Shown here in pieces: positions 39,841-59,600 of a stretch of DNA of 64,000 bases. The DNA is from Chiloscyllium plagiosum. Lineage: Eukaryota. The stretch is from NCBI RefSeq assembly GCF_004010195.1, contig NC_057718.1, positions 70,167,382 through 70,231,381 on the forward strand, written 5' to 3'. Position 1 is the first letter of the stretch, and each line of letters starts with the position of its first letter. The translations under genes and the position numbers were made by a program. Under the pieces are notes generated by a model that made no database searches, was not told the DNA's origin, and saw only the letters and a program-made list of their open reading frames with translations.

Positions 39841-42520
39841 TAGAACATAGAACATAGAAGAATACAGCGCAGTACAGGCCCTTTGGCCCTCGATGTTGCG
39901 CCGATCCAAGCCCACCTAACCTATACTAACCCACTATCTCCCTCCATATACCTATCCAATGCCCACTTAAATGCCCATAAAGAGGGAGAGTCCACCACTG
40001 CTACTGGCAGGGCATTCCATGAACTTACGACTCGCTGAGTGAAGAACCTACCCCTAACTTCAGTCCTTATCTACCCCCCCTTAATTTAAAGCTATGCCCC
40101 CTCGTAATAGCTGACTCCATACGNNNNNNNNNNNNNNNNNNNNNNNNNNNNNNNNNNNNNNNNNNNNNNNNNNNNNNNNNNNNNNNNNNNNNNNNNNNNN
40201 NNNNNNNNNNNNNNNNNNNNNNNNNNNNNNNNNNNNNNNNNNNNNNNNNNNNNNNNNNNNNNNNNNNNNNNNNNNNNNNNNNNNNNNNNNNNNNNNNNNN
40301 NNNNNNNNNNNNNNNNNNNNNNNNNNNNNNNNNNNNNNNNNNNNNNNNNNNNNNNNNNNNNNNNNNNNNNNNNNNNNNNNNNNNNNNNNNNNNNNNNNNN
40401 NNNNNNNNNNNNNNNNNNNNNNNNNNNNNNNNNNNNNNNNNNNNNNNNNNNNNNNNNNNNNNNNNNNNNNNNNNNNNNNNNNNNNNNNNNNNNNNNNNNN
40501 NNNNNNNNNNNNNNNNNNNNNNNNNNNNNNNNNNNNNNNNNNNNNNNNNNNNNNNNNNNNNNNNNNNNNNNNNNNNNNNNNNNNNNNNNNNNNNNNNNNN
40601 NNNNNNNNNNNNNNNNNNNNNNNNNNNNNNNNNNNNNNNNNNNNNNNNNNNNNNNNNNNNNNNNNNNNNNNNNNNNNNNNNNNNNNNNNNNNNNNNNNNN
40701 NNNNNNNNNNNNNNNNNNNNNNNNNNNNNNNNNNNNNNNNNNNNNNNNNNNNNNNNNNNNNNNNNNNNNNNNNNNNNNNNNNNNNNNNNNNNNNNNNNNN
40801 NNNNNNNNNNNNNNNNNNNNNNNNNNNNNNNNNNNNNNNNNNNNNNNNNNNNNNNNNNNNNNNNNNNNNNNNNNNNNNNNNNNNNNNNNNNNNNNNNNNN
40901 NNNNNNNNNNNNNNNNNNNNNNNNNNNNNNNNNNNNNNNNNAAATGACAAACAGCAATGGTCCTAAAACAGATCCTTGCGGAACACCGCTAGTGACGGCA
41001 CTCCAAGATTAACCTTTGCCATCAACTACTACCCTCTGTCTTCTTCCATCCAGCCAATTCCTAATCCAAACCTCCAACTCACCCTCAATGCCATATCTCC
41101 GTATTTTTTGCAGTAGTCTACCATGGGGAACCTTATCAAACGCCTTACTAAAATCCATATATACCACATCTACCGCTTTCCCCTCATCAACCTCCTTCGT
41201 CACCTTTTCAAAGAATTCAATAAGGTTTGTGAGGCACGACCTTCCCTTCACAAAACCATGCTGACTATCCTTGATCACATTATTCCTATCTAGATGTGCA
41301 TAAATCCTATCCCTTACAATTCTCTCTAAGACTTTGCCCACAACGGAAGTGAGACTCACCGGCCTATAGTTACTAGGGCTATCCCTACTCCCCTTTTTGA
41401 ACAAGGGAGCCACATTTGCTATCCTCCAGTCTTCTGGGACTACTCCTGTAGACAAAGAGGACATAAAAATCAAGGCCAATGGCTCTGCAATCTCCTCCCT
41501 TGCTTCCCAGAGAATCCTAGGATAAATGCCATCAGGCCCAGGGGACTTATCTATTTTCACCTTTTCCAGGATTTCCAACACCTCTTCTCTACATACCTCA
41601 AAGCCATCCCTTCTACTTATTTGTGCCTCAGTATTTTCATCGACAACAATGCCCTGTTCCTGAGTGAATACTGAAGAAAAGTATTCATTCAGTGTCTCTC
41701 CAATCTCTTCCGCCTCCACACGCAACTTCCCCCTACTATCCTTGACTGGACCTATTCCTACCCTAGTCATTCTTTTATTCCTAACATACCTATAGAAAGC
41801 CTTAGGGTTTTCCCTAATCCTATCTACTAAGGACCTTTCATGTCCCCTCCTTGCTGCTTTTAGCTCTCTCTTCAGGTCCTTCCTGGCTACCCTATAACTC
41901 TCAATCGCCCTAATTGAACCTTCACGTCTCATCTTGAGATAGGCCGCCCTCTTCCATTTAACAAGGGATTCCAATTCCTTATTAAACCACGGCTCCCTCG
42001 CATGACCCTTTCCTCCCTGCCTGACAGGTACATAATTATCAAGGACACTCAGTAGTTGCCCCTTGAACAAGTTCCACATATCATTTACACTCTTGCCTTG
42101 GAGTCTACTTTTCCAAGCCACACATCCTAAGTCATGCCTCACCGCATCATAATTTCCCTGATCCCAGCTATAACTCTTGCCCTGTAGTACACACTTATCC
42201 CTCTCCATCACGAGAGTAAAAATCACTGAATTATGGTCACTATCCCCAAAGTTCTCACCTACCTCTAATTCTAACACCTGGCCTGGTTCGTTACCCAGAA
42301 CCAAATCCAGTATGGCCTCACCTCTTGTTGGCCTGTCTACATATTGTGTCAGGAAACTCTCCTGCACACATTGAACAAACACTGACCCAACTAACGAACT
42401 TGAGCTATAGCTTTCCCAATCAATATCAGGAAAGTTAAAGTCCCCCATAACAACCACCCTATTACTGTCACTCATCTCCTGAATCACCTTCCCTATCCTT
42501 TCTTCAATGATTCTAGGACT
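39841..42520 (-). mobile_element. Young 5'-truncated CR1/HER1 LINE inserted in the Gypsy pol region; spans the gap
   Basis: 492-aa uninterrupted ORF 41009-42487 with APE end (MGDFN, LDLVL, SDH) and RT (KSPGPDG, NYRPVSLTS, QHGF, DFSKAFDKV); 3' tail at 39841. Confidence 0.97.
40124..40941. other. Assembly gap (818 N)
   Basis: Run of N. Confidence 1.
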
Positions 42521-45500
42521 ATTAGGAGTATGAATTTCATATTTAATTCATCAAGCCTCAGAAAGACCTGAGCTCTGGTACAAATGTGGGAGCCAGGGCA
42601 CCTTTTATCACCTTCACATGTCTTCCAAAGGGTGAAACCTGGTCTTGTAAACTGTAGCCCAAGTAGGTCACTTGGCATGCCTGGAACACATTTTTCCCTT
42701 CTAAGACATATGCCCAACTGCGCTAAGCATTTAAGCACTATTTCTAAATTCTCCAAGTGCTTTTTATTGTATTCCCTGTTATTGGAATGTCATCCAGATA
42801 AATGACAACCTGGGGTAGCCCTTGTAAAATCTTCTCCAAGGTTCACCGGAAAAGGACGCAGCTACTGATACCCCAAATAGCAGTCTTGTATATTGGTACA
42901 AACACTTATTGGTATGAACTGTGGCATACTTACGGGACTCATCTAGTCACTATTGCAAATACAGAAGACTCATGTCCAGCTTTGTGAAGGACAGCCTCCC
43001 CCAGTTTTGTGTACAAGTCTTCTATGCAAGGGATTGGGTATTTTTCCCACGGTTTCACATTCGCTTAAAATCCCCACAAAAGCAAACCGAGCCATCAGGT
43101 TTCACAATCAATAGAGAGCTGTACTGGTTTGATGATTCCTCCTTTCCAGCCTCCTGATTTCTATCTCTACGTTTGCTTATAAGGCAAATGGCCCTGGGCT
43201 GGCTTTGCAAAAATCACAATTGCTTCCTGGTCAACATGTAAGGTGGCCATGGCTCCTTAGATAGTCCCTAGACCTTCCTGAAAAATGTCTGGGTATTTAA
43301 TTAGGACTTCACTCAAGCAGCCTTTTTAATCAAAAACCGTTGAACCAATCAAGGTAAATCTTAATCAATTCTGTCCCATCAAGCTTGGGTCGAAGCATTT
43401 TACTACAATCAGTGATAACTTGTATCAACTACTTCTCATTGGAGGCCGGAACCAAAATCATGCTCTTAAACTGTAATGGGTTCCTAATATAGATTCTCAG
43501 CCTGGCCAAACTTAAGGGTTGGAGTCCAGAGTGAATCTAGTTGAATAAAACCCAAAAGAACTGTGGACATTGGAATACTGAAACAAACAAATGGCTGGAA
43601 AAGCGCATCAGGTCTGACAACATCTGTGAAGAGTAATCAGACTTAACGTGTTGGGTTGAGTGACCCTTCCTCAGTACCTGGTGAGCTTTTCCAACCTTTT
43701 CGGTTTTCAAATCTTGAAAAATACTGCTTCTGCAATCACTGAAACAGCTGCATAGGTATTTGACCCCCATTAAAACCAGGTGACCATTTAACCAGACATT
43801 TTTTGACTGGCTCTGATTTGGATGAAACTTAGCAATTTAACTGAGCCAAACCACATGTAGATAGACTTTTATGGGTACGGATTCACCTGGATACCAACCT
43901 GTGAGCTCTCCGACTCAAGTCAGGCCTCAAAGGCCTCCTTTGAAATGTCCAGTTGGCATACTGACAGCAACCACAATGGCTTGCCACATCCTGAAAAGCA
44001 TTTTAAACACTCAGCCAAGCTTTGGTTTTGTTTTCTGGTTTTGCTATGAGCTGGTCCAGAGTCCCTCTGCTCTTGATATGTCCTGCATGAGAATATGCAA
44101 TTGCCTACACTCAAGCTCAGTCATTCTGGTGAAAGAGTCCACTTCCGCTGGGATCCCCTGTAGCTCACATTCTTCACTTGCCACATTCTCTAATGTCAAT
44201 GCCAGTTGTCGTGCTTGTTTGAAGTCCAGTTGGGTTTCAGCTAGTAGGCACTTTTGCATGATTACGTCATTAATCCCACATATAATCAAATAGTCTCACA
44301 GCATTTCATTCAGGATTAGCCCAAAATAACATGCCTCTGCTAATTGTCTTAACTTGTCAAACATCCCAATATGGATGCTCCTAGTTCTTCAACTGCCAAA
44401 TAAACCAATAGCACCTCAGAATTAGAGGAGGCTTGGTGTCATAATAATTCATCAATTCTTGAAAAGTTTTAGTAGCTGGTGCCTCAGGGAAAGTTAGGCT
44501 CCTATTAACCAAAAATGCTGTGGGTCTGCAAGCAGTCAGAAGGATTACTTATTGCCTTTCATCTGCCCCCAATGTCATTTGCTTGGAAAAAAATAGTGTA
44601 TCCTTCTACATGCTAGGCCCTTTCTTCAACTGTAGGACTAGACAAGTTAAGCTTTCCAAATAAAGGCAAGATGCCAGAAATGCATTCCTCAGCTCAGAGT
44701 CAACTGGTGCGAGCAAATTTTCTTCAGGACTACTGTTTTCTCTCGTAGCCACTGAATTAATTCCAAGGAAGCAAAAATCCCATCACCAAATCATCCTTTA
44801 TTTACACATACACACAACATGAACTGTAAATACCTTGCTCACAGCCAGTCCCTAGAATGAGGAGACTCTCTGAATCTCCTGTTTAAATCTGTCGGCCAGG
44901 CCTCCTGACTGGCTCTAGTGAATAACGGCAAGCAAGGATTTCATCATCAATGAGGTCCATCTGAGAGGCGAGGTGAGGCAAGGGGAGGGGGCTCTTTTGA
45001 ATTATAAATTGTAAGGTCTTTAATCAAGATAAATTGAAGCCCAGGATCATAGGCCCAGCACAAAGCAGCATTGAGTGACATTACAAGAATACTGTAAGTT
45101 CATTGGTTATTAAAAGCTGCTAATATACTTTCAGGTTAAAGATAAGTGGGATAAATATTTACAGATTAAGAACTAAAGACCAGTGACAATTCCTTTATTT
45201 AAAAAAAACAAATTAAGAACTAAGTAAATAAAATTGAGATGCAAGACAAAATGTTAAGTTGTTCCTGCACGATGTGAGAGTTGGCGGACCCCATTATGAT
45301 TCATGTAACCACGTCTGTCATAAGTGTTAGTTGCTTGAGGAACATCAGCTTAGAGTTGATGAGTTGGAGTCTGAACTTCAAACACTGAGACACATTAGGA
45401 AGGGGGTGAGTTACCTGGACACTGTGTCGGGAGGCAGTCACACCTCTTAGACTAACTACTTCAAATTTGATCAGTGCTCAGGGATAAGAAAATGTGACTA

Positions 45501-47233: not shown

Positions 47234-47299
47234 CAACATGGGTGCTGGGGAAAAAATAAGCACTACCGCTGTTAGGCAGTAGTGTGGGGGTAAAACAAA
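47234..47299 (+). mobile_element. Short poly(A)-ended non-LTR retro-insert with a 3' stem-loop
   Basis: 15-bp TSD AAAAAATCCCCTAGG at 47219 and 47300; homologous to the reverse complement of 53545-53584. Confidence 0.8.
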
Positions 47300-48047
47300 A
47301 AAAAATCCCCTAGGACACAGTGATCATAACATAATAGAATTTAATATTCAGTTTGAGGGAGAAACTTGGATTGGAAACTATTGTGTTTAACTTAGATAAA
47401 GGAAATTACAATGAAATGGGGATAAAGTTCACTTAAGTGAACAGGGTGGATAGATTAGCAGAAATGACAATAAGCAAGCAATGGAAGATATTTAAGGTGA
47501 TAATTCTTGACTCTCAGTAAAAATACATCTCAGTAAGAAAGGGAAAAACCAACCATGGCTAACTAACGTACTTAAGGAGAATATGACGTTGAAAGAAAAT
47601 GTATATAAGGAGGCCAAAGTTAGGGATAAATATGGAATTGAGCAATGAAGGACCAAAAAGATAATAAAGACAGAGACAATAAATTATGAGGGCACTAGTA
47701 AGGAATACAAAAACAAACTATAAGAGCATTTTAAAAAATATAAAAAGAAAGAGCTCAAAGTGAACATAGTCCCCCTAGAAAATGAATTTGTGGAACAACG
47801 AAATGCAGAGGAGTTGAACAGATCTTCTGCATCAGTCTTTACAATGGAAGATATTTCAAACATCCCATTAATACAAAAGAATACAGAAGGATTTGAATAC
47901 CATCACCATCACCTGAGAAGGAGTATTAGACAAACTAATTGAACTAGAGGTAGGTAAGTCCTCTGGCCCTGATAGTCTACATCCAAGGATCGTAAAGTGG
48001 AGGTAGGACATGATATTGGTTTGCTCTCAGCAACATGGAGGTCCAGA

Positions 48048-50345: not shown

Positions 50346-51010
50346 TAACTGAAGAGAAAAAAAGAGGTCAGAGTTACAGTAGAGAGCGAGATTAAAATAG
50401 CAAGTGTCGGGAAGCTCATGGTCCCACTCTCAGAGAAAAGTGAGGTGTTCCACAAAATGACCAGCCAGACTGAATTTAATCCATCCCAGTGGAGTATATA
50501 AAATTGAAAGTAGAACTAGAAAATTGCCTCTTAAACTGGATGAATTTAGTGTCTGATCTATGATGGAAAAGGACAAGGCAAAGGACACTTTGCCTTCTCT
50601 TGCACCTGCATAGGAAGTTGCCAGGAGTGGTTGATTGGAGGCAACTGAAGAATGGACTAGGGTATTGTGGAGTGAGTAGCCCTTTTGGAATGCTGAAAGG
50701 GGATAAATTATATTGGGTGGTTTCACTGTACTTGGAATGATGAATATATGGACTACTGAGATGGAAGGTGAGCCCCATCATTATTTGGAATAGAGTTGAA
50801 AGAATGAGAGCATTAGAGTTGGAACTTGGACAGTCAAAATGAAGAGCTGAGTCAATCACGATTGAGGGAGCCCAGGTACACATATTGCCAGCACTGGTAT
50901 GAAGGTAGTATCACTAGAACAGATGCAATGGAAATAGACAATTTCGGAAAATGGAATTGAGTCTTTACAGGATGCAGGGATGGAGGATGTGAAGTCAAGG
51001 TTGTTGTAGG

Positions 51011-53754
51011 TGAAATAACTCCATCAAGATCTGTATCTGGTAATCAAGTTACCCTTTATTTACTCATGCACAGTACATGATACTGACCTAGCTAGCACAG
51101 AGCCAGCTACTAGAGGGAACAGAACTCCTGACACTCCTGTTTATATCTTTCAGCCAGGGTTCCCTGATTGGACTAGGTTAACAGCCCCAGTCAGGGAACT
51201 CACATACTGTGAGGTGCACCGAGCTGACCTTGTTCCAATTGATACATCCCTACCCCTCTAAATCCTGGGATGCAGCCCCATTTGTTTTCCTGTAGCTTCT
51301 CCTAGACCATTTTTGCACCAGGTCCAATTCCTCAGACTCTGCCTCAGATTCTGGCATCATGTACCAGACTGTAGTCCACCTCTTGTGCCCAGATCGTCTC
51401 AGTCAAAACTCATCTTCTTCAAGTGGTAACAGCATCAAGGCTGTTACCACTTGTCAGAGGTTTCTTTGATGCTAAACGGAGGGGGAGAACCTTCAGGTAC
51501 TGACAGCCTTGCCAGATGTTCTGAGTGGCCAGGTATGTTTTGCTCCTGCCTTGCCTAGCCGAATTTTGTGCATCACAGGACCCAATTTCATGTTGACCAT
51601 GCAAATTACCCATGCAGATCCATTCCCATGGTTTTAACACCAAACTTCATCCCTGAAGTAAACTGCCTCTCCCATTTAAAGGAGTCTTATGGCTAGCAAT
51701 GGCATTGCTGTTGGCATTTCAACCCCTACCAACCCAGCCGCACTCACGAATGATCAAATTTAACGTAGTGCGGAGTCTTCACCCCATTAGCAACTCTGCT
51801 GGAACTGTCCCTGTAGCTGCATGAGGGTTGGTCCTATGATCAAACAGGAATTGGAACAGTTTGGTATTGAGTGAAGCTGTAGGCTGTTTCTTTCAGCCTG
51901 CCTTCAAAGTTTGGATAGTTCTTTCTGCCAGATTTCTTAAGCTCGTCAAAAATCCCGATATACATTCGAGCTGTAGAGTAAAATTGATAGCGTCTCAAAA
52001 TTAGAAGACGCTTGGTTAGCTAAATGTGCCAACTCTTGAAAAGTTTTAGTATCTGGTACTTCCAGAAAAGTTAGGCTCCTAATAACCAAACAAGCAGTCA
52101 GGAAAATTACTGGTTGCTTTTCATCTGCCCCAATATCATTTGCCCATTTTGGACCTACTCTTTGATTGCAGGATCAAAAGAGTCAAAGCTCACAAATAGT
52201 GGCATAATGCCAGAAATATTTATCCCAATTCAAAGACAACTGTTGTGAGGGAATCTCTTCAGGGCCATGTTTGTGTCTCATCACCACTGAAATAACTCCA
52301 CAAAGGCTGATATCCCATTACCAAGTCACCTTTTATTTATACGTATGGAGTTCATGACACTGACCCAGCCAGCACAGAGCAGGCTCCTAGAGTGAATAGG
52401 AACCCTGACTCTCCTGTTTTTTTTCCCGTTTATAATATTTTATGAAATACACAGTTTACAAAACAATTAACATTAACAGCTGTATACAAAGAAACAGCAA
52501 TTTTACAAGGGAGAGGAATGGAAAAGCCAGACCCCAAACCTTAATGTTCAACCAGTTTTCAGGGAAATGAGGACAAACCTCAAATCCCAGTTTCAATCAT
52601 TACAAACAGTAACAATGACATTTGTAGATATAAGACAGTCACGTAATACTGACCCCAAGCAATCCAGCAAACTCCCCGTTCCTCCCACTTGCTGGCCACT
52701 CTAAGACAACCTGACCCTACACACCTTCTGGCTCTCGGTCCACCTCATGTCTCTTCCAGTTCTTGGTCTGCCCTGACACACCTTCCAACCCACCTCTATA
52801 GCGGACCATTCTGCTTCCCCACCCCCCACCCCACCCCCGCACCCCCCAGGATGGCAGCGATCAGGATGGCCTACCCACCTTCCGGCTTCCCTAACCGCCC
52901 TTAGCACCTTCCAGCCACCTCTAGGACAGCCTACCCTGGTACGCACCTGGGGTGACGGTGCTGAGGATGGCCTACCCGTTTTCCAGCTACTCTCCTGTTT
53001 TTTTTATTCAAGACAACATTTATTATTTAATTATACAAAATATGGAAACATTTAATTAAGGAAACAGCTCGTCATACAATAACTTCCAAACAAAACAAAA
53101 ATCTCAATCTATTTAATTCTCATTCATATAGCAGCATTATTTTAAACAATTGTGGCCAGTAAGGTTACATTTTTAAAAATGAGAAATCTGAAGTCACAGT
53201 ACTGAAGCAGTATTTGGGATTCAGGAACAGATATATACTCTCCTGTTTTTTTTGTAGAGTCCTTGTCACTGATTCAGCTCCCTCAGAGCCAGCTCTCAGA
53301 GTGAACAAAACCTCTGACACTTTTGTTCTTTTTTTTCTTTTCACACTGATCCAGCTCCCTCAGAGGCAGGTCTCAGAGTGAACAGAACATCTGACACTCC
53401 TGTTACTCTCCTGTTTATTTTTTTTTTATTTTATTAAACAAATTACAAACCAGTTTAAATCTCCTGCTTATTTTTTTTTTTTTTTCTCCTGGTTATATTT
53501 TATTAAACAAATTACAAAACAATTTACAAAAAACATTTTTTTTTAACCCCCACACTACCCCCTAAGTGCGGTAGTGCTTATTTTAAATCTCCTGTTTATT
53601 TTTTTTTATTTTATTAAACAAATTACAAACCAGTTTAAATCTCCTGTTTATATCTGTCATCCAGTGTTCCCTGATTGGACCAGCTTAACATCCCCCAATC
53701 ACAAAATTCATATTCTGTGATCTCCACCTGGCTGATCTCCTTCCAATCACTACA
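51011..53754 (-). mobile_element. Internally deleted Mag-type Gypsy element with 5-bp TSD; 3' LTR 51011-51246, 5' LTR 52288-53754 expanded by stacked insertions
   Basis: TSD GTAGG at 51006-51010 and 53755-53759; LTR termini TGAAAT...TACA; PPT at 51247-51259; CpG-decayed PBS GTGGTGATGAG; integrase-end and gag-start remnants; LTRs homologous to 38561-38791. Confidence 0.9.
52408..53650 (-). repeat. Array of at least seven poly(A)-tailed inserts separated by repeated target (AC)TCTCCTGTTT(A)
   Basis: Target copies at 52408, 52989, 53237, 53405, 53460, 53485, 53588 and 53640; the first seven are followed by T-rich runs. Confidence 0.85.
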
Positions 53755-56612
53755 GTAGGAATCAGTGATAGTATAGCATTAAATATATTGCCACATAAAA
53801 GAATTAGTAGTTTTAATTAATAATTTATTACACCTAATAGGGATTACGCCTCACTGGAGTAGTGTGTTGGAAATGAAGCAATGCTATTCTCAGAGTCAAT
53901 TATTTAAAAAAATTGCAGAATTATTCAATGACCTTGGCTTTCAGACTCAGGTTGATAGAAAGCATAGACCAGGTTACTAAACAAGAATTACGACTTATTA
54001 TAAATAAATAAACACTAGCTACGGGCAAACTATTATAATCCATTGGCATAAAATTCTCCTCATTAAAACTCAAACTCCCTTTATAAATTCCCCCTTATAA
54101 ACTCCCTCTTACACACTGAAACCAACACAGACAGAAGAAAATGCATGGCATTATAGGTGGAAAGAAATATTAAGAAAGTAATTCAGTGGTTTCTGTTCAC
54201 AGGATCTGCTGAGTGATTCTTCTACTATTCACAACACAGTTTTTTGGTCTTCATTTTCCAGATGTTTTATTGAGTTACACGAGACACAGGGTGTCTGGTT
54301 AACTCTTATAAAAAGTCTCTGACTTGTTAACTAAAAGTAAAACCTTGCAGCAACTGCTGAGGGATTTTTTTTTCCCTTCAGACATAAAACAGATTTTGCT
54401 CCAGAGAGAGCTTCTGAACTGATAGAAATCTGATGGCTTCTCATCATCTTATTCACAGGCACAAGCTGATCAACTAATTGGGAACCAATACACAGCTGTT
54501 AGCAGGCAGAAGGCCCTTGTCATCAATAACTGATCACTTGTCCACAAAACAATTAGCTCCTTGTTGCCAGCGGAACCTCCATTTGTATAAACCCTTGGCT
54601 ACAGCTTGCCTGCACCTTCATCTACTACTGCTAGAACCAGCAGCTGTGCAAACAGTACTTACAATGAATGTCAGGTTACTTGCTTTCAAAGCATGGAAAA
54701 ATCATTCAGCAATCCTCAGTTTTTAAAACAGCTCTTTTCCTATTCAGTCCACAATGAAAAAATAGAAAAATGAAAAGCATAGACTTTACAACTGCAATTC
54801 ATTTAATTTCATTTCAATATAATACATAGGTTGAGCAAAGATCTATTTTCTACAATGTAGGAATAGATTTGTTTCCAGAATTCAATTATGAAATTTGAAT
54901 TTACCTTTGGCTTTGTCAGCTTTATTTCCTTGAGAATTAGAATAACACAGTTGTACCACATTAGATGGCTAATTTTAGGCAAATATTTCAAGTTGTGCTA
55001 ACTATTTGTAATGAGTTTAACTACATTGTTTGACTTGAAAGTGTGGAAACAGCATATCTGTGGGAGATGCTAAATGTCTTTGAATTACAGTTAAATCAGA
55101 TCTTTGAATAATTATTGCAATAACAAAATGAACCAGTGAAAAGCAATCCTTTAGCTGCAGTCAACTGAATTGCACACATGGGATAGGAAAGAATGTTTCT
55201 TCTAAAATACTATATATTTTTCTGATTCAAAGTTCAATAGCCTAACAGGATCAAAACTGTTGATCACTAAAGATTACCAAACAGAAGCTGCAAAAAATTG
55301 GGTGCAGTGCTGGAGTTATAGGTTTCCGAACCCTTGGAGCATTGGCCACTCCTACTCAGAGATTCCTTTCAGTCCATTAATCCTGCGCTGCCATTCAATT
55401 AGATCATGGCTAATCATCTACCTCAATGTCACTTTCATACACTATCTTCATATTACTCTCCAGAAACCTAATGATTTATATCATGAACCTACTCGTAATT
55501 AAACTTCCAAAGCCTCTAGGGTAGAGAATTCGTTTCTATACTTATCATCCAGAAATGTGGCTGAGATCTTGCAGGAGTTGTTGGTAATGTTTGATGTACT
55601 GTGGACAACAGATTGTCTGTGTCTCACTGTGCGTCTGTCCTTCAATGTACAGAAAGAGAAAAATACTTTTTCTTTCAATTACTCATTGCAATGTCCCAAA
55701 AATAGAAATAGTGGTTAACAGTCCTGTGCAGTCACATGACTGAGCTTATTGTGAAACAAAGCAAAGCTTGGAAACTTAAATTGCATAACAAACAGGAAAG
55801 GCAAATAATGTTTGCAGTTTTTGTAAAGTTGTTTTGTAGCTACTGAATTTTGTAAAATATTGACTTCAATATTTTGCTAATTATCAATGCTATGCAGAGA
55901 AAGGAGAAGTGAAACGCTGGCAAATTTTTCTTGAGGGTACATGTTGTTCTGAGTGAAAATGGAAAAGGAAACCAGAGGTAAGATGGCACACATGATTGGT
56001 TTTTCTATGAAATTCAACCAGATAAATAGTCACTGTGGCTTGGCACAAGTTTTGAAACATTTCCTGTGTCTTTCACCATGCTCAAACTTGTACAGTTTCA
56101 GTTTGAAAAAGATGCATTGCAGTTGAAAATTGGTTAACAAAAACCTTTGCTTTGTTGCAGAACTGATAATAAGAATCATAGGTTGTACAATCATAGATAT
56201 TTTTTCCCATAAGAAACAGTTTTTAATTTGTCTGTGGATTCAATTTCCAATTTGTATAAGTGCAGTAAACATTTCCAGCTCTTCTTGCCTAGACTCGTAA
56301 TCATGGAGTATAGAAAATGCCCTTCAGCCTAAAAACATCTGAACTGCCAAAAGAATCATGACCTAAATTAAACCCTCTTTCCTGCACCAGGACCACAGCA
56401 TTGAATATTATGGCTCTTCAAGACTTCACTGAAGTACTTTTTATGGTTGTGAGGTTCCTGCCTTAACTACTCTCATAGACAATGCATTCCAGTCACACAC
56501 CGCCCGGATGAAAAGACATCTACCTCAAATTCCCTCTAAAACCTCCTTCTCTCACTTTAAAATTTTTCCCCTTTATTATTGGCACTTTGACTAAGGGACA
56601 ATGGCTTTCTAT

Positions 56613-57594: not shown

Positions 57595-58232
57595 CTATAC
57601 ACCCTGTCCATGCCCCATTTAATCTCATCAGGACATGTCTCATGCTTCAATGTTCCAAATAAAACAACCGAGCTTTCCAGAATCTCTGAAATGCTTCATC
57701 CCAGGCAACATCCTGATGAATTCGTCTTTGCACTTTCTTCATTGCAATCACATCTTTCTTTAGTGTGGTGACCAGAACAGTGCAGAGCATTCCTGAGACC
57801 ATACTCTTCATTATCAACAACACCGCCAATTCTTATATCATCTGCAATCATACTAATTATACCTTTTACAATCACATCCAAGCTGTTAATGTACATAACA
57901 AACACCAAAATTCCTGATTTGGAGATGCTGGTGTTGGACTGGGGTGTACCTAACCAAAGTTTTTTCTATAGCTCTAATAAAATCTCCCTGCTCTTATAAT
58001 CTATGTCACGACCAATAAGGCAAGGACCTGTACACCTTATAACTATGTTATTAACTTCTCTTGCCACCTTCAGGGATCTGTGGACAAGCACCCCAATATC
58101 TCTTTGTTTCTCTGATCTTCCTAGCATCCTGCTATTCAATTAGTATTCCCTTGGCAGCAGTGTAGATTAAAGGTCAATGACTTACACCTATAACCAATGG
58201 TGTACCACAGGATTCCGTATGAGGAATTTTGC

Positions 58233-58407
58233 TAAGTTAAAAATTAGTTTTCAGAGTGCTGCTCCTTCATCAGGTGGTTGTGGACCACGTGATGAAGAAG
58301 CAGCACTCCGAAAACCAGTGCTTCCAATTAAACCTGTTGGACTATAACCCGGTGTTTTGTGATTGTTAACTTCGTACACCCCAGTCCAACACCAGCATCT
58401 CCAGATC
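58233..58407. mobile_element. Third, partly deleted palindromic hammerhead mini-element
   Basis: CTCCTTCATCAGGTGG / CCACGTGATGAAGAAG arms and GTACACCCCAGTCCAACACCAGCATCTCC end. Confidence 0.7.
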
Positions 58408-59600
58408 AGGAATTTTGGTGTTTGTTATGTACATTAACAGCTTGAATGTGATTGTAAAAGGTATAATTAGTATGATTGCAGATGATATAAGAATTGACGG
58501 TGGTGTTGATAATGAAGAGTATGGTCTCAGGCTACAGTCTTATATTGATCAGCTAGTAAATTGGGCACAGCAATGGTGGATGGAATTGTGATAGTGTGAG
58601 ATGTTGCACTTTAGGAGATCTAATAAAGGAGGGTTATGCACAATGAATGGTAGTACTGAGGAATTTGGAGTGGCACAGTGGCTCAGTGGTTAGCACTACT
58701 GCCTCACAGCACCAGGGTCCTAGGTTCGATTCCAGCCTTGGGTGACTGTGCAAACTCCCACAGACATTCTCCCTGTGTCTGTGTGGGTTTCCTCCGGGTG
58801 CTGCGGTTTCCCCACAGTCCAAAGATGCGCAGGTTAGGTGAATTGGCCATGTATAGTGTTAGATGCATTAGTCTGATGGAAATGGGTCTGGGTGAGTTAC
58901 TCTTCCAATGGGTCGGTGTGACTTGTTGGGCTGAAGGGCCTGTTCCCACATTGTAGGGATTCTAATCTAATCTAATCTAACAAAGGGATATGGTGTATAA
59001 GTCCACAGATCCCTGAAAGGTGTCCACAAAGATTGACAGGTTAGTGAAGAAGGCATATGAGGTATTCGCCTTCATTAGACAGAGCATAGAATATAGCAGC
59101 AGGGAAGTCTTGTTGCAACTTCATAAAATTTTGATTAAGCCACAGAAAGAATACAGCATGCAGTCCTGGTTGCCACACTATCAGAAAGAGAGGGTGCAGA
59201 AGGACATTCAACAGGATGTTACCTGGGATGGAATGCTTCAGTTATGAGGAGAGACGGGTTAGACTGGGTTTGATTTCCTTGGAGCAGTGGTGGCCGAGGG
59301 GGTATCTGAATGAGATATACAAAATTATGAACAGAATACTCTGGGTAGATCATGAGAATCTTTTTTTCCATGGCAGACATGTCTCAGACCAGAAAGCATA
59401 AGTTTAGTGGAAATCTGAAGAGCAAGGTTTTCATCCAGAGGTTGATAGACATAGTTAATATGCTGCTTGAGAGGCAGATACTTTTGCAACATGTAAAAAG
59501 CATCTACATGATCACCTAATAGTTTTGTGTTCATTGATCAGCATAAACATGATGAGCTGTAGGGCCTGTTTCTGTGTTGTGTGATTCTTTGACTTTGTGA
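58408..59600 (+). mobile_element. Decayed CR1 RT-to-3' fragment containing an HE1 SINE (58667-58980)
   Basis: IISMIADDIRI, LQSYIDQL, REVLLQLHKIL motifs; SINE head GTGGCACAGTGGCTCAGTGGTTAGC. Confidence 0.8.

What the first reader, a model, noticed from the sequence alone, without database searches (positions are those of the whole stretch)
52408..53650. Serial retro-insertion hotspot at the TATA box of a Mag/Gypsy LTR: candidate LTR-targeting non-LTR retroelement system
Seen: the empty sister LTR reads ACACTCCTGTTTATATCT at about 51131-51148 (minus strand GATATAAACAGGAG, a TATA-like box). In the other LTR this position is opened by about 1.2 kb of stacked inserts. ACTCTCCTGTTT occurs at 52408, 52989, 53237 and 53405, and TCTCCTG(T/C/G)TTA at 53460, 53485, 53588 and 53640. 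The first seven are followed by T-rich runs (poly(A) tails on the minus strand), and the LTR resumes (TATCTGTCATCC...TACA) after the last. The inserts include at least three unrelated sequences (about 570 bp GC-rich, about 235 bp AT-rich, 40-90 bp TTATTAAACAAATTAC type), all in one orientation. Known: 11-12 bp TSDs with poly(A) are hallmarks of L1/Tx1 target-primed reverse transcription, and Tx1-clade elements include target-specific families that insert into other repeats. Inference: L1/Tx1-like families here repeatedly target this LTR promoter, regenerate the target with each TSD, and would disrupt the host element's TATA box. Two short inserts (53417-53459, 53599-53639) are near-identical and may be a local duplication.
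Basis: partly seen in the sequence, partly recalled or inferred. Interest (0 to 1): 0.78.

Follow-up and report, generated by a model that had tools for sequence, protein, structure and literature searches.

The report
LINE stacks mRNAs at LTR TATA
Pieces of a Tx1-type jumping gene, of a non-coding passenger element and of an ordinary messenger RNA sit stacked at one short site just behind the TATA-like box of another transposon's end-repeat, here and at many other places in this shark genome; the Tx1 enzyme likely put them all there, a variant of a targeting habit already known from frog and crocodilian relatives.

Summary
The array is real: all eight target copies sit at the stated coordinates, plus two degenerate ones. 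The inserts are: family A (non-coding, about 1.85 kb full length, 5' head resembling the LTR's R region); the 3' UTR end of NDUFAF8 mRNA; two LTR-R fragments; A-type tips; and a tip of family C, a Tx1-clade LINE whose RT is 64% identical to Xenopus Tx1L. Genome-wide, 22 of 29 A copies and 24 of 56 C copies lie at this LTR site, against 0 of 29 for a control LINE. About 9 of 30 LTRs of one subfamily are occupied. Spliced SNX1/2 and RPL30 retrocopies occupy the same site elsewhere. Corrections: here the TATA box stays intact upstream of the stack; the LTRs are only 75% alike, so 'sister' is unproven; the twin short inserts are probably separate events. TE-targeting Tx1 elements, including LTR-targeting ones, are published (Kojima 2015), and this scan found the same system at eight or more other loci of this genome. 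Site-directed insertion of cellular mRNAs is the least known part. Promoter borrowing and the enzyme's role are inferred, not shown.

The parts
51005..51246 (-). Empty LTR (3' LTR position, next to a polypurine tract at 51247-51257) showing the unoccupied target
   Evidence: family abundant, 5415 candidates
51247..52287 (-). Deleted, decayed internal region of a Gypsy-like LTR element (gag-like start joined to integrase end and polypurine tract)
   Evidence: six-frame reading with stops; related stretches carry weak integrase-core hits beside the tract
52288..52407 (-). R/U5 part of the occupied LTR, with AATAAA at 52332-52337 on the minus strand
52408..52419 (.). Target copy 1 (left copy of the duplication); further copies at 52989, 53237, 53316 (degenerate), 53393 (degenerate), 53405, 53460, 53485, 53588, 53640
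52420..52988 (-). 5'-truncated copy of non-coding family A with tail; likely the oldest insert (78% to its best relative)
53001..53236 (-). 3' UTR end of NDUFAF8 mRNA with AATAAA and poly(A): a truncated processed pseudogene
   Evidence: one other match in the genome, 92-93%, in the last exon of a three-exon NDUFAF8 gene; RNA reads carry the parent's letters
53249..53404 (-). Two A-tailed fragments of LTR R region (or of element 5' heads), 93-95% like other LTR copies and unlike the host LTR's own R
   Evidence: same class in 9 of 50 other occupied LTRs
53417..53459 (-). 3' tip of an A-type subfamily with tail
53470..53484 (-). Tail-only insert between two target copies
53495..53587 (-). Composite insert: A-type 3' tip (53495-53535) joined without a target copy to the 3' tip of Tx1 family C (53536-53585); likely a template jump
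53598..53639 (-). Second A-type 3' tip with the same 5' junction as 53417-53459; likely the newest insert
53640..53654 (-). Regenerated target with intact TATA-like box (TATAAA at 53647-53652 on the minus strand)
53650..53754 (-). U3 part of the occupied LTR
   Evidence: crossed by an X1 contig into unique flank
44753..44975 (-). Third, empty LTR of a related subfamily with the same target motif

Best explanation
This is a stack of separate poly(A)-tailed insertions at one site behind the TATA-like box of an abundant Gypsy-like LTR, likely all made by the ORF2 protein of a Tx1-clade LINE (family C). Inferred steps: the endonuclease nicks the T-rich strand at or within a few bases of CCTG-TTT-AT; the freed end primes reverse transcription on a poly(A) tail; the second nick 10-12 or more bases away duplicates the target, so U3, TATA and one target copy are rebuilt on the 5' side of each insert and the next insert lands in front of the last. 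RNA choice is relaxed, as in mammalian L1, so the enzyme also copies family A, LTR-R fragments and cellular mRNAs (NDUFAF8 here; SNX1/2 and RPL30 elsewhere) into the same site. The 5' junction likely forms by pairing of the cDNA with sequence behind the nick, which makes new copies reuse an older neighbour's start. Full-length A and C begin with LTR-R-like sequence and would be transcribed from the host LTR's promoter (about 55% likely; untested).
For: Shown: LTR half in register at the insert for A 22 of 29, C 25 of 57 (24 of 56 with one locus counted once), control LINE D 0 of 29; target motif beside the tail A 19 of 29, C 21 of 56, D 2 of 29. 184 of 718 forward-strand anchors of one LTR subfamily carry a T6 run at the site; 9 of the first 30 anchor loci are occupied, read by eye. 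In 50 T-run loci the run starts 14-25 bases after the anchor in all 50; C occurs in 37, A in 5, R fragments in 9. C ORF2 has APE-type endonuclease and RT domains, is 52% identical to Xenopus Tx1L over the N-terminal 623 residues and groups with Tx1L and turtle relatives at 100/99. Truncation points, tails and host LTR subfamilies differ between loci. Identity to closest fetched relatives rises towards the TATA: A 78%, NDUFAF8 piece 92%, R fragments 93-95%, tips 100% over 31-43 bases. SNX1/2 insert maps to three exons with GT-AG introns removed; RPL30 copy lacks the parent's intron. Adjacent C copies share a 5' start in 11 of 43 pairs against 3.9% between loci; the longer such pairs are 88-98% identical with different tails. 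LTR-R-like heads: A in L098, C in L240, L241, L245.
Against: About half of the sampled C copies show neither LTR half in register, so the preference is partial; loci reach only 1.5 kb each side and many hold gaps, so some stacks may be missed. No enzyme assay links C to A or to the mRNA inserts; A shares no detectable sequence with the C slices compared, and another targeted family could be the carrier. Only 1 of 12 apparent ribosomal-protein retrocopies lies at the site. In 35 closed stacks the TATA side was auto-called intact in 13 and altered in 22 (several show the same variant on both copies and a few are mis-calls), and in L382 the TATA is deleted, which weakens a clean promoter-borrowing model. 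C heads in L241 and L245 stop about 35-40 bases short of the nick and both have a truncated C piece in front. The short tips are too short to date firmly. No intact C copy was found among 20 RT-bearing loci.
Confidence: 0.82

Rival explanations
1. The inserts entered one master LTR once and were spread by the LTR element's own copying, so there is no repeated targeting.
For: The LTR family is very abundant; a few occupied loci look like copies of each other (L322 and L339 share the same start).
Against: Insert kind, truncation point, tail and host subfamily differ between loci; single-copy mRNA pieces occur at the site; the other LTR of this element is empty.
Confidence: 0.02
2. The site is a general hot spot (bent TA-rich or open promoter DNA, or an existing T tail) that any poly(A) retroelement uses; family C has no special sequence preference.
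For: The nick region resembles the L1 TTTT/A consensus (PMC1950540 passages); 3 of 30 anchor loci carry other inserts near the site; a SINE-like insert with tail sits at the site in L332.
Against: Control family D, of like abundance and age in the same genome, is at the site in 0 of 29 copies; C copies outside recognisable LTRs often still follow a CCTG-type motif.
Confidence: 0.08
3. Targeting is real, but part of the stack arose by DNA-level tandem duplication, unequal crossover or assembly error rather than by separate retro-insertions.
For: 53417-53459 and 53598-53639 differ only in tail length; L171 has near-repeated blocks; no read piece spans the whole array.
Against: The twin tips are 140 bases apart with unduplicated sequence between; same-start pairs elsewhere are 88-98% identical with different tails and 3' ends; three junctions are crossed by X1 contigs and one by a contig of a second organism.
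Confidence: 0.08

Closest known systems
Tx1-8_Crp and Tx1-4_AMi, crocodilian Tx1 families (Kojima 2015, PMC4494074; passages, sections 15 and 20 read; supplements not available)
   Same: [quoted passage not shown]
   Different: The main text gives no position in the LTR, no TATA link, no stacks and no mRNA cargo; the supplementary figures that may show the position could not be seen.
Tx1L of Xenopus laevis (P0005; PMC1950540 and PMC4494074 passages)
   Same: Closest named protein: 52% over endonuclease to RT, 64% in RT, one clade at 100/99; a sequence-specific endonuclease that aims at another transposon.
   Different: Targets the piggyBac-type DNA transposon Tx1D and is described as stringent; family C hits an LTR and only about 4 in 10 sampled copies are there.
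Tx1-Mar with SINEU (Kojima 2015)
   Same: Non-autonomous elements share the target of a Tx1 family, and transcription from the flanking target element is proposed.
   Different: Target is a Mariner element and heads come from snRNA; family A has an LTR-R-like head and no Rfam match.
R2 in 28S rDNA (PMC6895275 passages; PMC4494074 section 20)
   Same: Works like it in two inferred respects: transcription from the target's promoter and pairing of cDNA with target sequence at the 5' junction.
   Different: R2 has a restriction-like endonuclease; its RNA matches the upstream target, whereas the heads here match sequence behind the nick.
L1-made processed pseudogenes (PMC3747384 passages; bioRxiv 10.64898/2026.06.26.734816 passages)
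   Same: Truncated, intron-free, poly(A)-tailed mRNA copies with target duplication; the preprint links Tx1/CR1 content to retrocopies in non-mammals by correlation.
   Different: L1 scatters them at TTTT/A; here three were seen at one defined repeat site.

Membership tests
Tx1 clade (family C) | ORF2 with N-terminal APE-type endonuclease followed by RT | tested here: met
   PF03372 at 17-222 and PF00078 behind it in L247
Tx1 clade (family C) | RT groups with Xenopus Tx1L | tested here: met
   100/99 clade with P0005 and turtle proteins, 27 rows, midpoint root, P0043 left out as too short
Tx1 clade (family C) | ORF1 with zinc knuckle upstream of ORF2 | tested here: inconclusive
   zf-CCHC hit E 8e-4, just under cut-off, in L233
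Target-specific Tx1 family | More than 20% of flanks in one repeat (Kojima 2015 criterion) | tested here: met
   C 24 of 56, A 22 of 29, control 0 of 29
Target-specific Tx1 family | Endonuclease nicks the target in vitro | not testable with these tools
   no bench work
Tx1-Mar group holding Tx1-8_Crp / Tx1-4_AMi | Phylogenetic grouping with Keno and Tx1-Mar | not testable with these tools
   Repbase sequences not available; supplements not readable
Processed pseudogene (53001-53236) | Single parent gene, ends at a poly(A) site, genomic parent lacks the tail, target duplication | tested here: met
Processed pseudogene (53001-53236) | Intron loss | tested here: inconclusive
   insert lies wholly in the last exon; intron loss is shown only for the SNX1/2 and RPL30 inserts at other loci
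SINE (family A) | Head from tRNA, 7SL, 5S or snRNA; 3' tail shared with a partner LINE | tested here: not met
   no Rfam match; no blastn match to four C slices. It works like a non-autonomous passenger but is not filed as a SINE
Ty3/Gypsy host element | TG..CA LTRs, polypurine tract, integrase last before the tract | tested here: inconclusive
   ends and tract seen; integrase-core hits below Pfam cut-off beside the tract in L098 and L032; RT recognised by eye only
Mag lineage of Gypsy | RT/integrase phylogeny with Mag | not tested

The most novel reading that the evidence does not exclude
A shark relative of Tx1L combines a site-choosing endonuclease with L1-like relaxed poly(A) recognition, so it writes any polyadenylated RNA, cellular mRNAs included, into one site directly behind an LTR promoter, and it and its passenger carry an LTR-R head that rebuilds that promoter: a promoter parasite that also makes promoter-adjacent retrocopies.
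Probability: 0.45. Interest if true: 0.7.

Novelty: new variant of a known kind. Interest (0 to 1): 0.46.

Why it matters
If the inferred steps hold, this is a natural case of site-directed insertion of arbitrary mRNA copies. Most retrocopies land without a promoter; these land a few bases behind a TATA-like box. It would give a testable link between Tx1 elements and retrocopies in cartilaginous fish, which a 2026 preprint shows only by correlation. The stacks also record the order of insertions and how 5' junctions form. About a quarter to a third of one LTR subfamily is occupied, so the effect on that repeat is large. The general habit, Tx1 elements aiming at other transposons including LTR elements, is already in print.

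Tried and rejected
Several L1/Tx1 families: rejected, only C encodes ORF2; A has no tblastn match to the 91 ORF2 relatives and its longest stop-free sense frame is 120 aa. TATA disruption at this locus: rejected from the sequence. R fragments as local duplications of the host LTR: rejected, they are closer to other LTR copies. The motif count misplaced the 3' end of C and was replaced; its LTR counts stand. The 30 loci were chosen on an exact TATA-side 26-mer and gave a lower occupied share (about 5 of 30); I used the anchor sample instead because it does not depend on the junction. The reverse-strand count (604) counts one locus several times and was dropped. One search used wrong coordinates; its loci served only. 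One search listed ORFs of the wrong flank (L094). Rfam: no match in L098, L245 or the window. Pfam on 13 host-element frames: 2 weak integrase hits, 11 blanks; PDB search blank. No RNA holder was listed for the array. C 3' ends are covered by poly(A) RNA reads, but priming on genomic A-runs could give the same, so I do not count it as expression. Literature searches with no fitting paper: Tx1+shark+LTR (0 papers), LINE+LTR+TATA+tandem, Chiloscyllium+Tx1 (2 unrelated listings), (listings only, apart from the papers named).

Full report
Observation. The eight target copies are at the stated places. The motif occurs 9 times in the window against 0.19 expected, 8 of them in the array. The occupied LTR runs 52288-53754 and the empty one 51005-51246, beside a polypurine tract, so the host element reads on the minus strand. 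The two LTRs are 75% identical and lack a clear flanking duplication, so 'sister' is unproven. Contigs of run X1 cross 52902-53045, 53293-53375 and 53606-53950 without differences; X1 may be the assembly's own sample. A contig of organism B crosses 53207-53303 with one difference, so that junction likely predates the split of the two organisms. No piece spans the whole array.

What the inserts are. From the R/U5 side: (1) 52420-52988 is a truncated copy of family A, 2425 candidates genome-wide, best others 78% over the whole insert. Full-length A is about 1.85 kb, stands three times in tandem in L098, has degenerate GC-rich internal repeats, no ORF2 homology, no Rfam match, and begins with about 60 bases of LTR-R-like sequence. 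(2) 53001-53236 has one other match in the genome, 92-93% alike and without a tail. That match is the end of the last exon of a gene whose two upstream exons encode NDUFAF8; the middle exon matches a record named Chiloscyllium plagiosum NDUFAF8 at 100%, so the genome is likely this bamboo shark or a close relative. RNA reads over the insert carry the parent's letters. (3) 53249-53404 holds two A-tailed LTR-R fragments, 93-95% like other LTR copies. (4) 53417-53459, 53495-53535 and 53598-53639 are 3' tips of an A-type subfamily. (5) 53536-53585 is the 3' tip of family C, joined to an A tip with no target copy between. (6) 53470-53484 is tail only.

Family C. Copies are 95-96% alike at the 3' end, 3328 candidates. 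Of 20 RT-bearing loci fetched none is intact. L247 gives 1081 codons with one stop, an APE-type endonuclease and an RT domain, 52% identity to Xenopus Tx1L ORF2 over 623 residues and 64% in RT; it groups with Tx1L and turtle proteins at 100/99 in a tree of 27 rows. 5' ends in L240, L241 and L245 resemble LTR R.

Targeting. An LTR half lies in register at the insert for 22 of 29 A copies and 25 of 57 C copies (24 of 56 with L078/L079 counted once), against 0 of 29 for family D, another abundant poly(A) LINE of this genome that looks Tx1-like by eye but was not placed in the tree. The motif directly beside the tail was found for A 19 of 29, C 21 of 56, D 2 of 29. These are top-scoring hits, not random draws, but the queries held no flank. 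From the LTR side, 184 of 718 forward-strand anchors of one subfamily have a T6 run within 30 bases, and 98 have the strict empty site. Of the first 30 anchor loci I read 9 as occupied, 18 as empty and 3 as carrying other inserts nearby. In 50 T-run loci the run starts 14-25 bases behind the anchor in every case; C is present in 37, A in 5, R fragments in 9, and 7 had no library match, one of them a plain T expansion.

Cellular mRNAs at the site. Besides NDUFAF8, L309 holds a 620-base insert that maps to three exons of one gene with both GT-AG introns removed and encodes the C-terminus of a sorting nexin 1/2. A retrocopy-first test with three ribosomal-protein families returned 23 loci, of which I read 12 as intron-free copies; 1 of the 12, an RPL30 copy 97-99% like its parent, heads a stack of A and C in this LTR. 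The other 11 have no LTR at their ends and mostly look older; I did not date them. With 5415 LTR candidates and a window of about 12 bases, chance placement is of the order of 1 in 50,000 per insertion (my estimate; the LTR count is a lower bound).

Order and junctions. Identity to the closest fetched relative rises towards the TATA box: 78, 92, 93-95 and 100%, as expected if each insert lands in front of the last; the tips are short and weakly dated. Adjacent C copies in a stack share their 5' start in 11 of 43 pairs, against 3.9% between loci. The longer pairs are 88-98% identical with different tails and 3' ends, three short overlaps of 24-55 bases are identical. This fits pairing of new cDNA with the older neighbour's end rather than DNA duplication (inference). 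The three rightmost junctions in the window all end in the same TTTAAA before the target, which explains the twin tips without a duplication; a duplication is not excluded.

TATA box. In the window the box is whole at 53647-53652, upstream of the stack. Among 35 closed stacks elsewhere it was auto-called intact in 13 and altered in 22; several altered ones show the same variant on the left copy and a few are mis-calls. In L382 it is deleted. So insertion separates U3/TATA from R/U5 and sometimes damages the box. Promoter borrowing rests on orientation and on the R-like heads; no transcription start was observed.

Known systems. Kojima 2015 (PMC4494074; passages, sections 15 and 20) describes Tx1 families that prefer other transposons, two crocodilian families that prefer LTR retrotransposons, trans-mobilised SINEU at the shared target, and possible transcription from the flanking element. 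Its supplements could not be read. Tx1L's specific endonuclease is described in PMC1950540 (passages), relaxed poly(A) recognition by L1 in PMC3747384 (passages), cDNA-target pairing for R2 in PMC6895275 (passages), and a correlation of Tx1/CR1 content with retrocopies in bioRxiv 10.64898/2026.06.26.734816 (passages). Searches for a shark or TATA-site case found none. Earlier notes of this scan report the same system at eight other loci of this genome and an RPL30 retrocopy at an LTR TATA box in another shark genome; they are unchecked leads, not support.

Verdict. It is a new variant of a known kind: a partly target-specific Tx1L relative with passengers. The site-directed mRNA retrocopies and the reuse of 5' junctions are its most interesting features. 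The enzyme's role and the promoter step remain inferred.

Noticed in passing
window 47245-47307: A family C 3' tip on the plus strand inside a decayed LINE, outside any LTR, with a short duplication (AAAAATCCCCTAGG-like) on both sides: an off-target insertion whose site still resembles the motif.
   Followed up: partly
L309 (G000:C2:130631300-130634100): Spliced SNX1/2 retrocopy of 620 bases as the first insert of a stack; parent at C2:69760205-69761721.
   Followed up: yes
L382 (G000:C9:96686683-96689832): Truncated RPL30 retrocopy heading a stack of A and C; the TATA box is deleted at its 5' junction.
   Followed up: yes
L064-L137 (tails of family C): Tails of C are long and mixed (A with scattered G and T on the RNA strand) while family D tails are short and pure; many C copies also lack their last 20-70 bases yet carry such tails. 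Mixed tailing of the RNA or RT slippage; unexplained.
   Followed up: no
L098 345-5990: Three full-length family A units head to tail in one LTR, each 5' end rebuilding R, target and, for the last, TATA.
   Followed up: partly
L103 912-2530: A family D LINE inserted into the GC-rich repeats of a family A copy with a 13-14 base duplication.
   Followed up: partly
window 53640 and run X5: An X5 contig matches 53640-53950 exactly but its first 32 letters do not lie on the window: possibly another allele of the stack's newest insert.
   Followed up: no
L253, L328, L330, L331, L250, L267: Short A-tailed pieces of the 5' head or 5' UTR of C or A inserted at the site, with variable 3' ends and no poly(A) signal.
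   Followed up: partly
L332: A SINE/CR1-like 3' piece with a T-rich tail and target duplication at the same LTR site.
   Followed up: no
window 57792-58531: Inverted repeat with 158-base arms, 97% complementary, 424 bases apart; likely a small DNA transposon.
   Followed up: no
window 40023-40941: Run of N (assembly gap) of about 900 bases upstream of the third LTR element.
   Followed up: no
L032 and window 51247-52287: The same kind of internal deletion (gag start joined to integrase end) occurs at another locus, so a non-autonomous deleted form of the host LTR element may exist.
   Followed up: no
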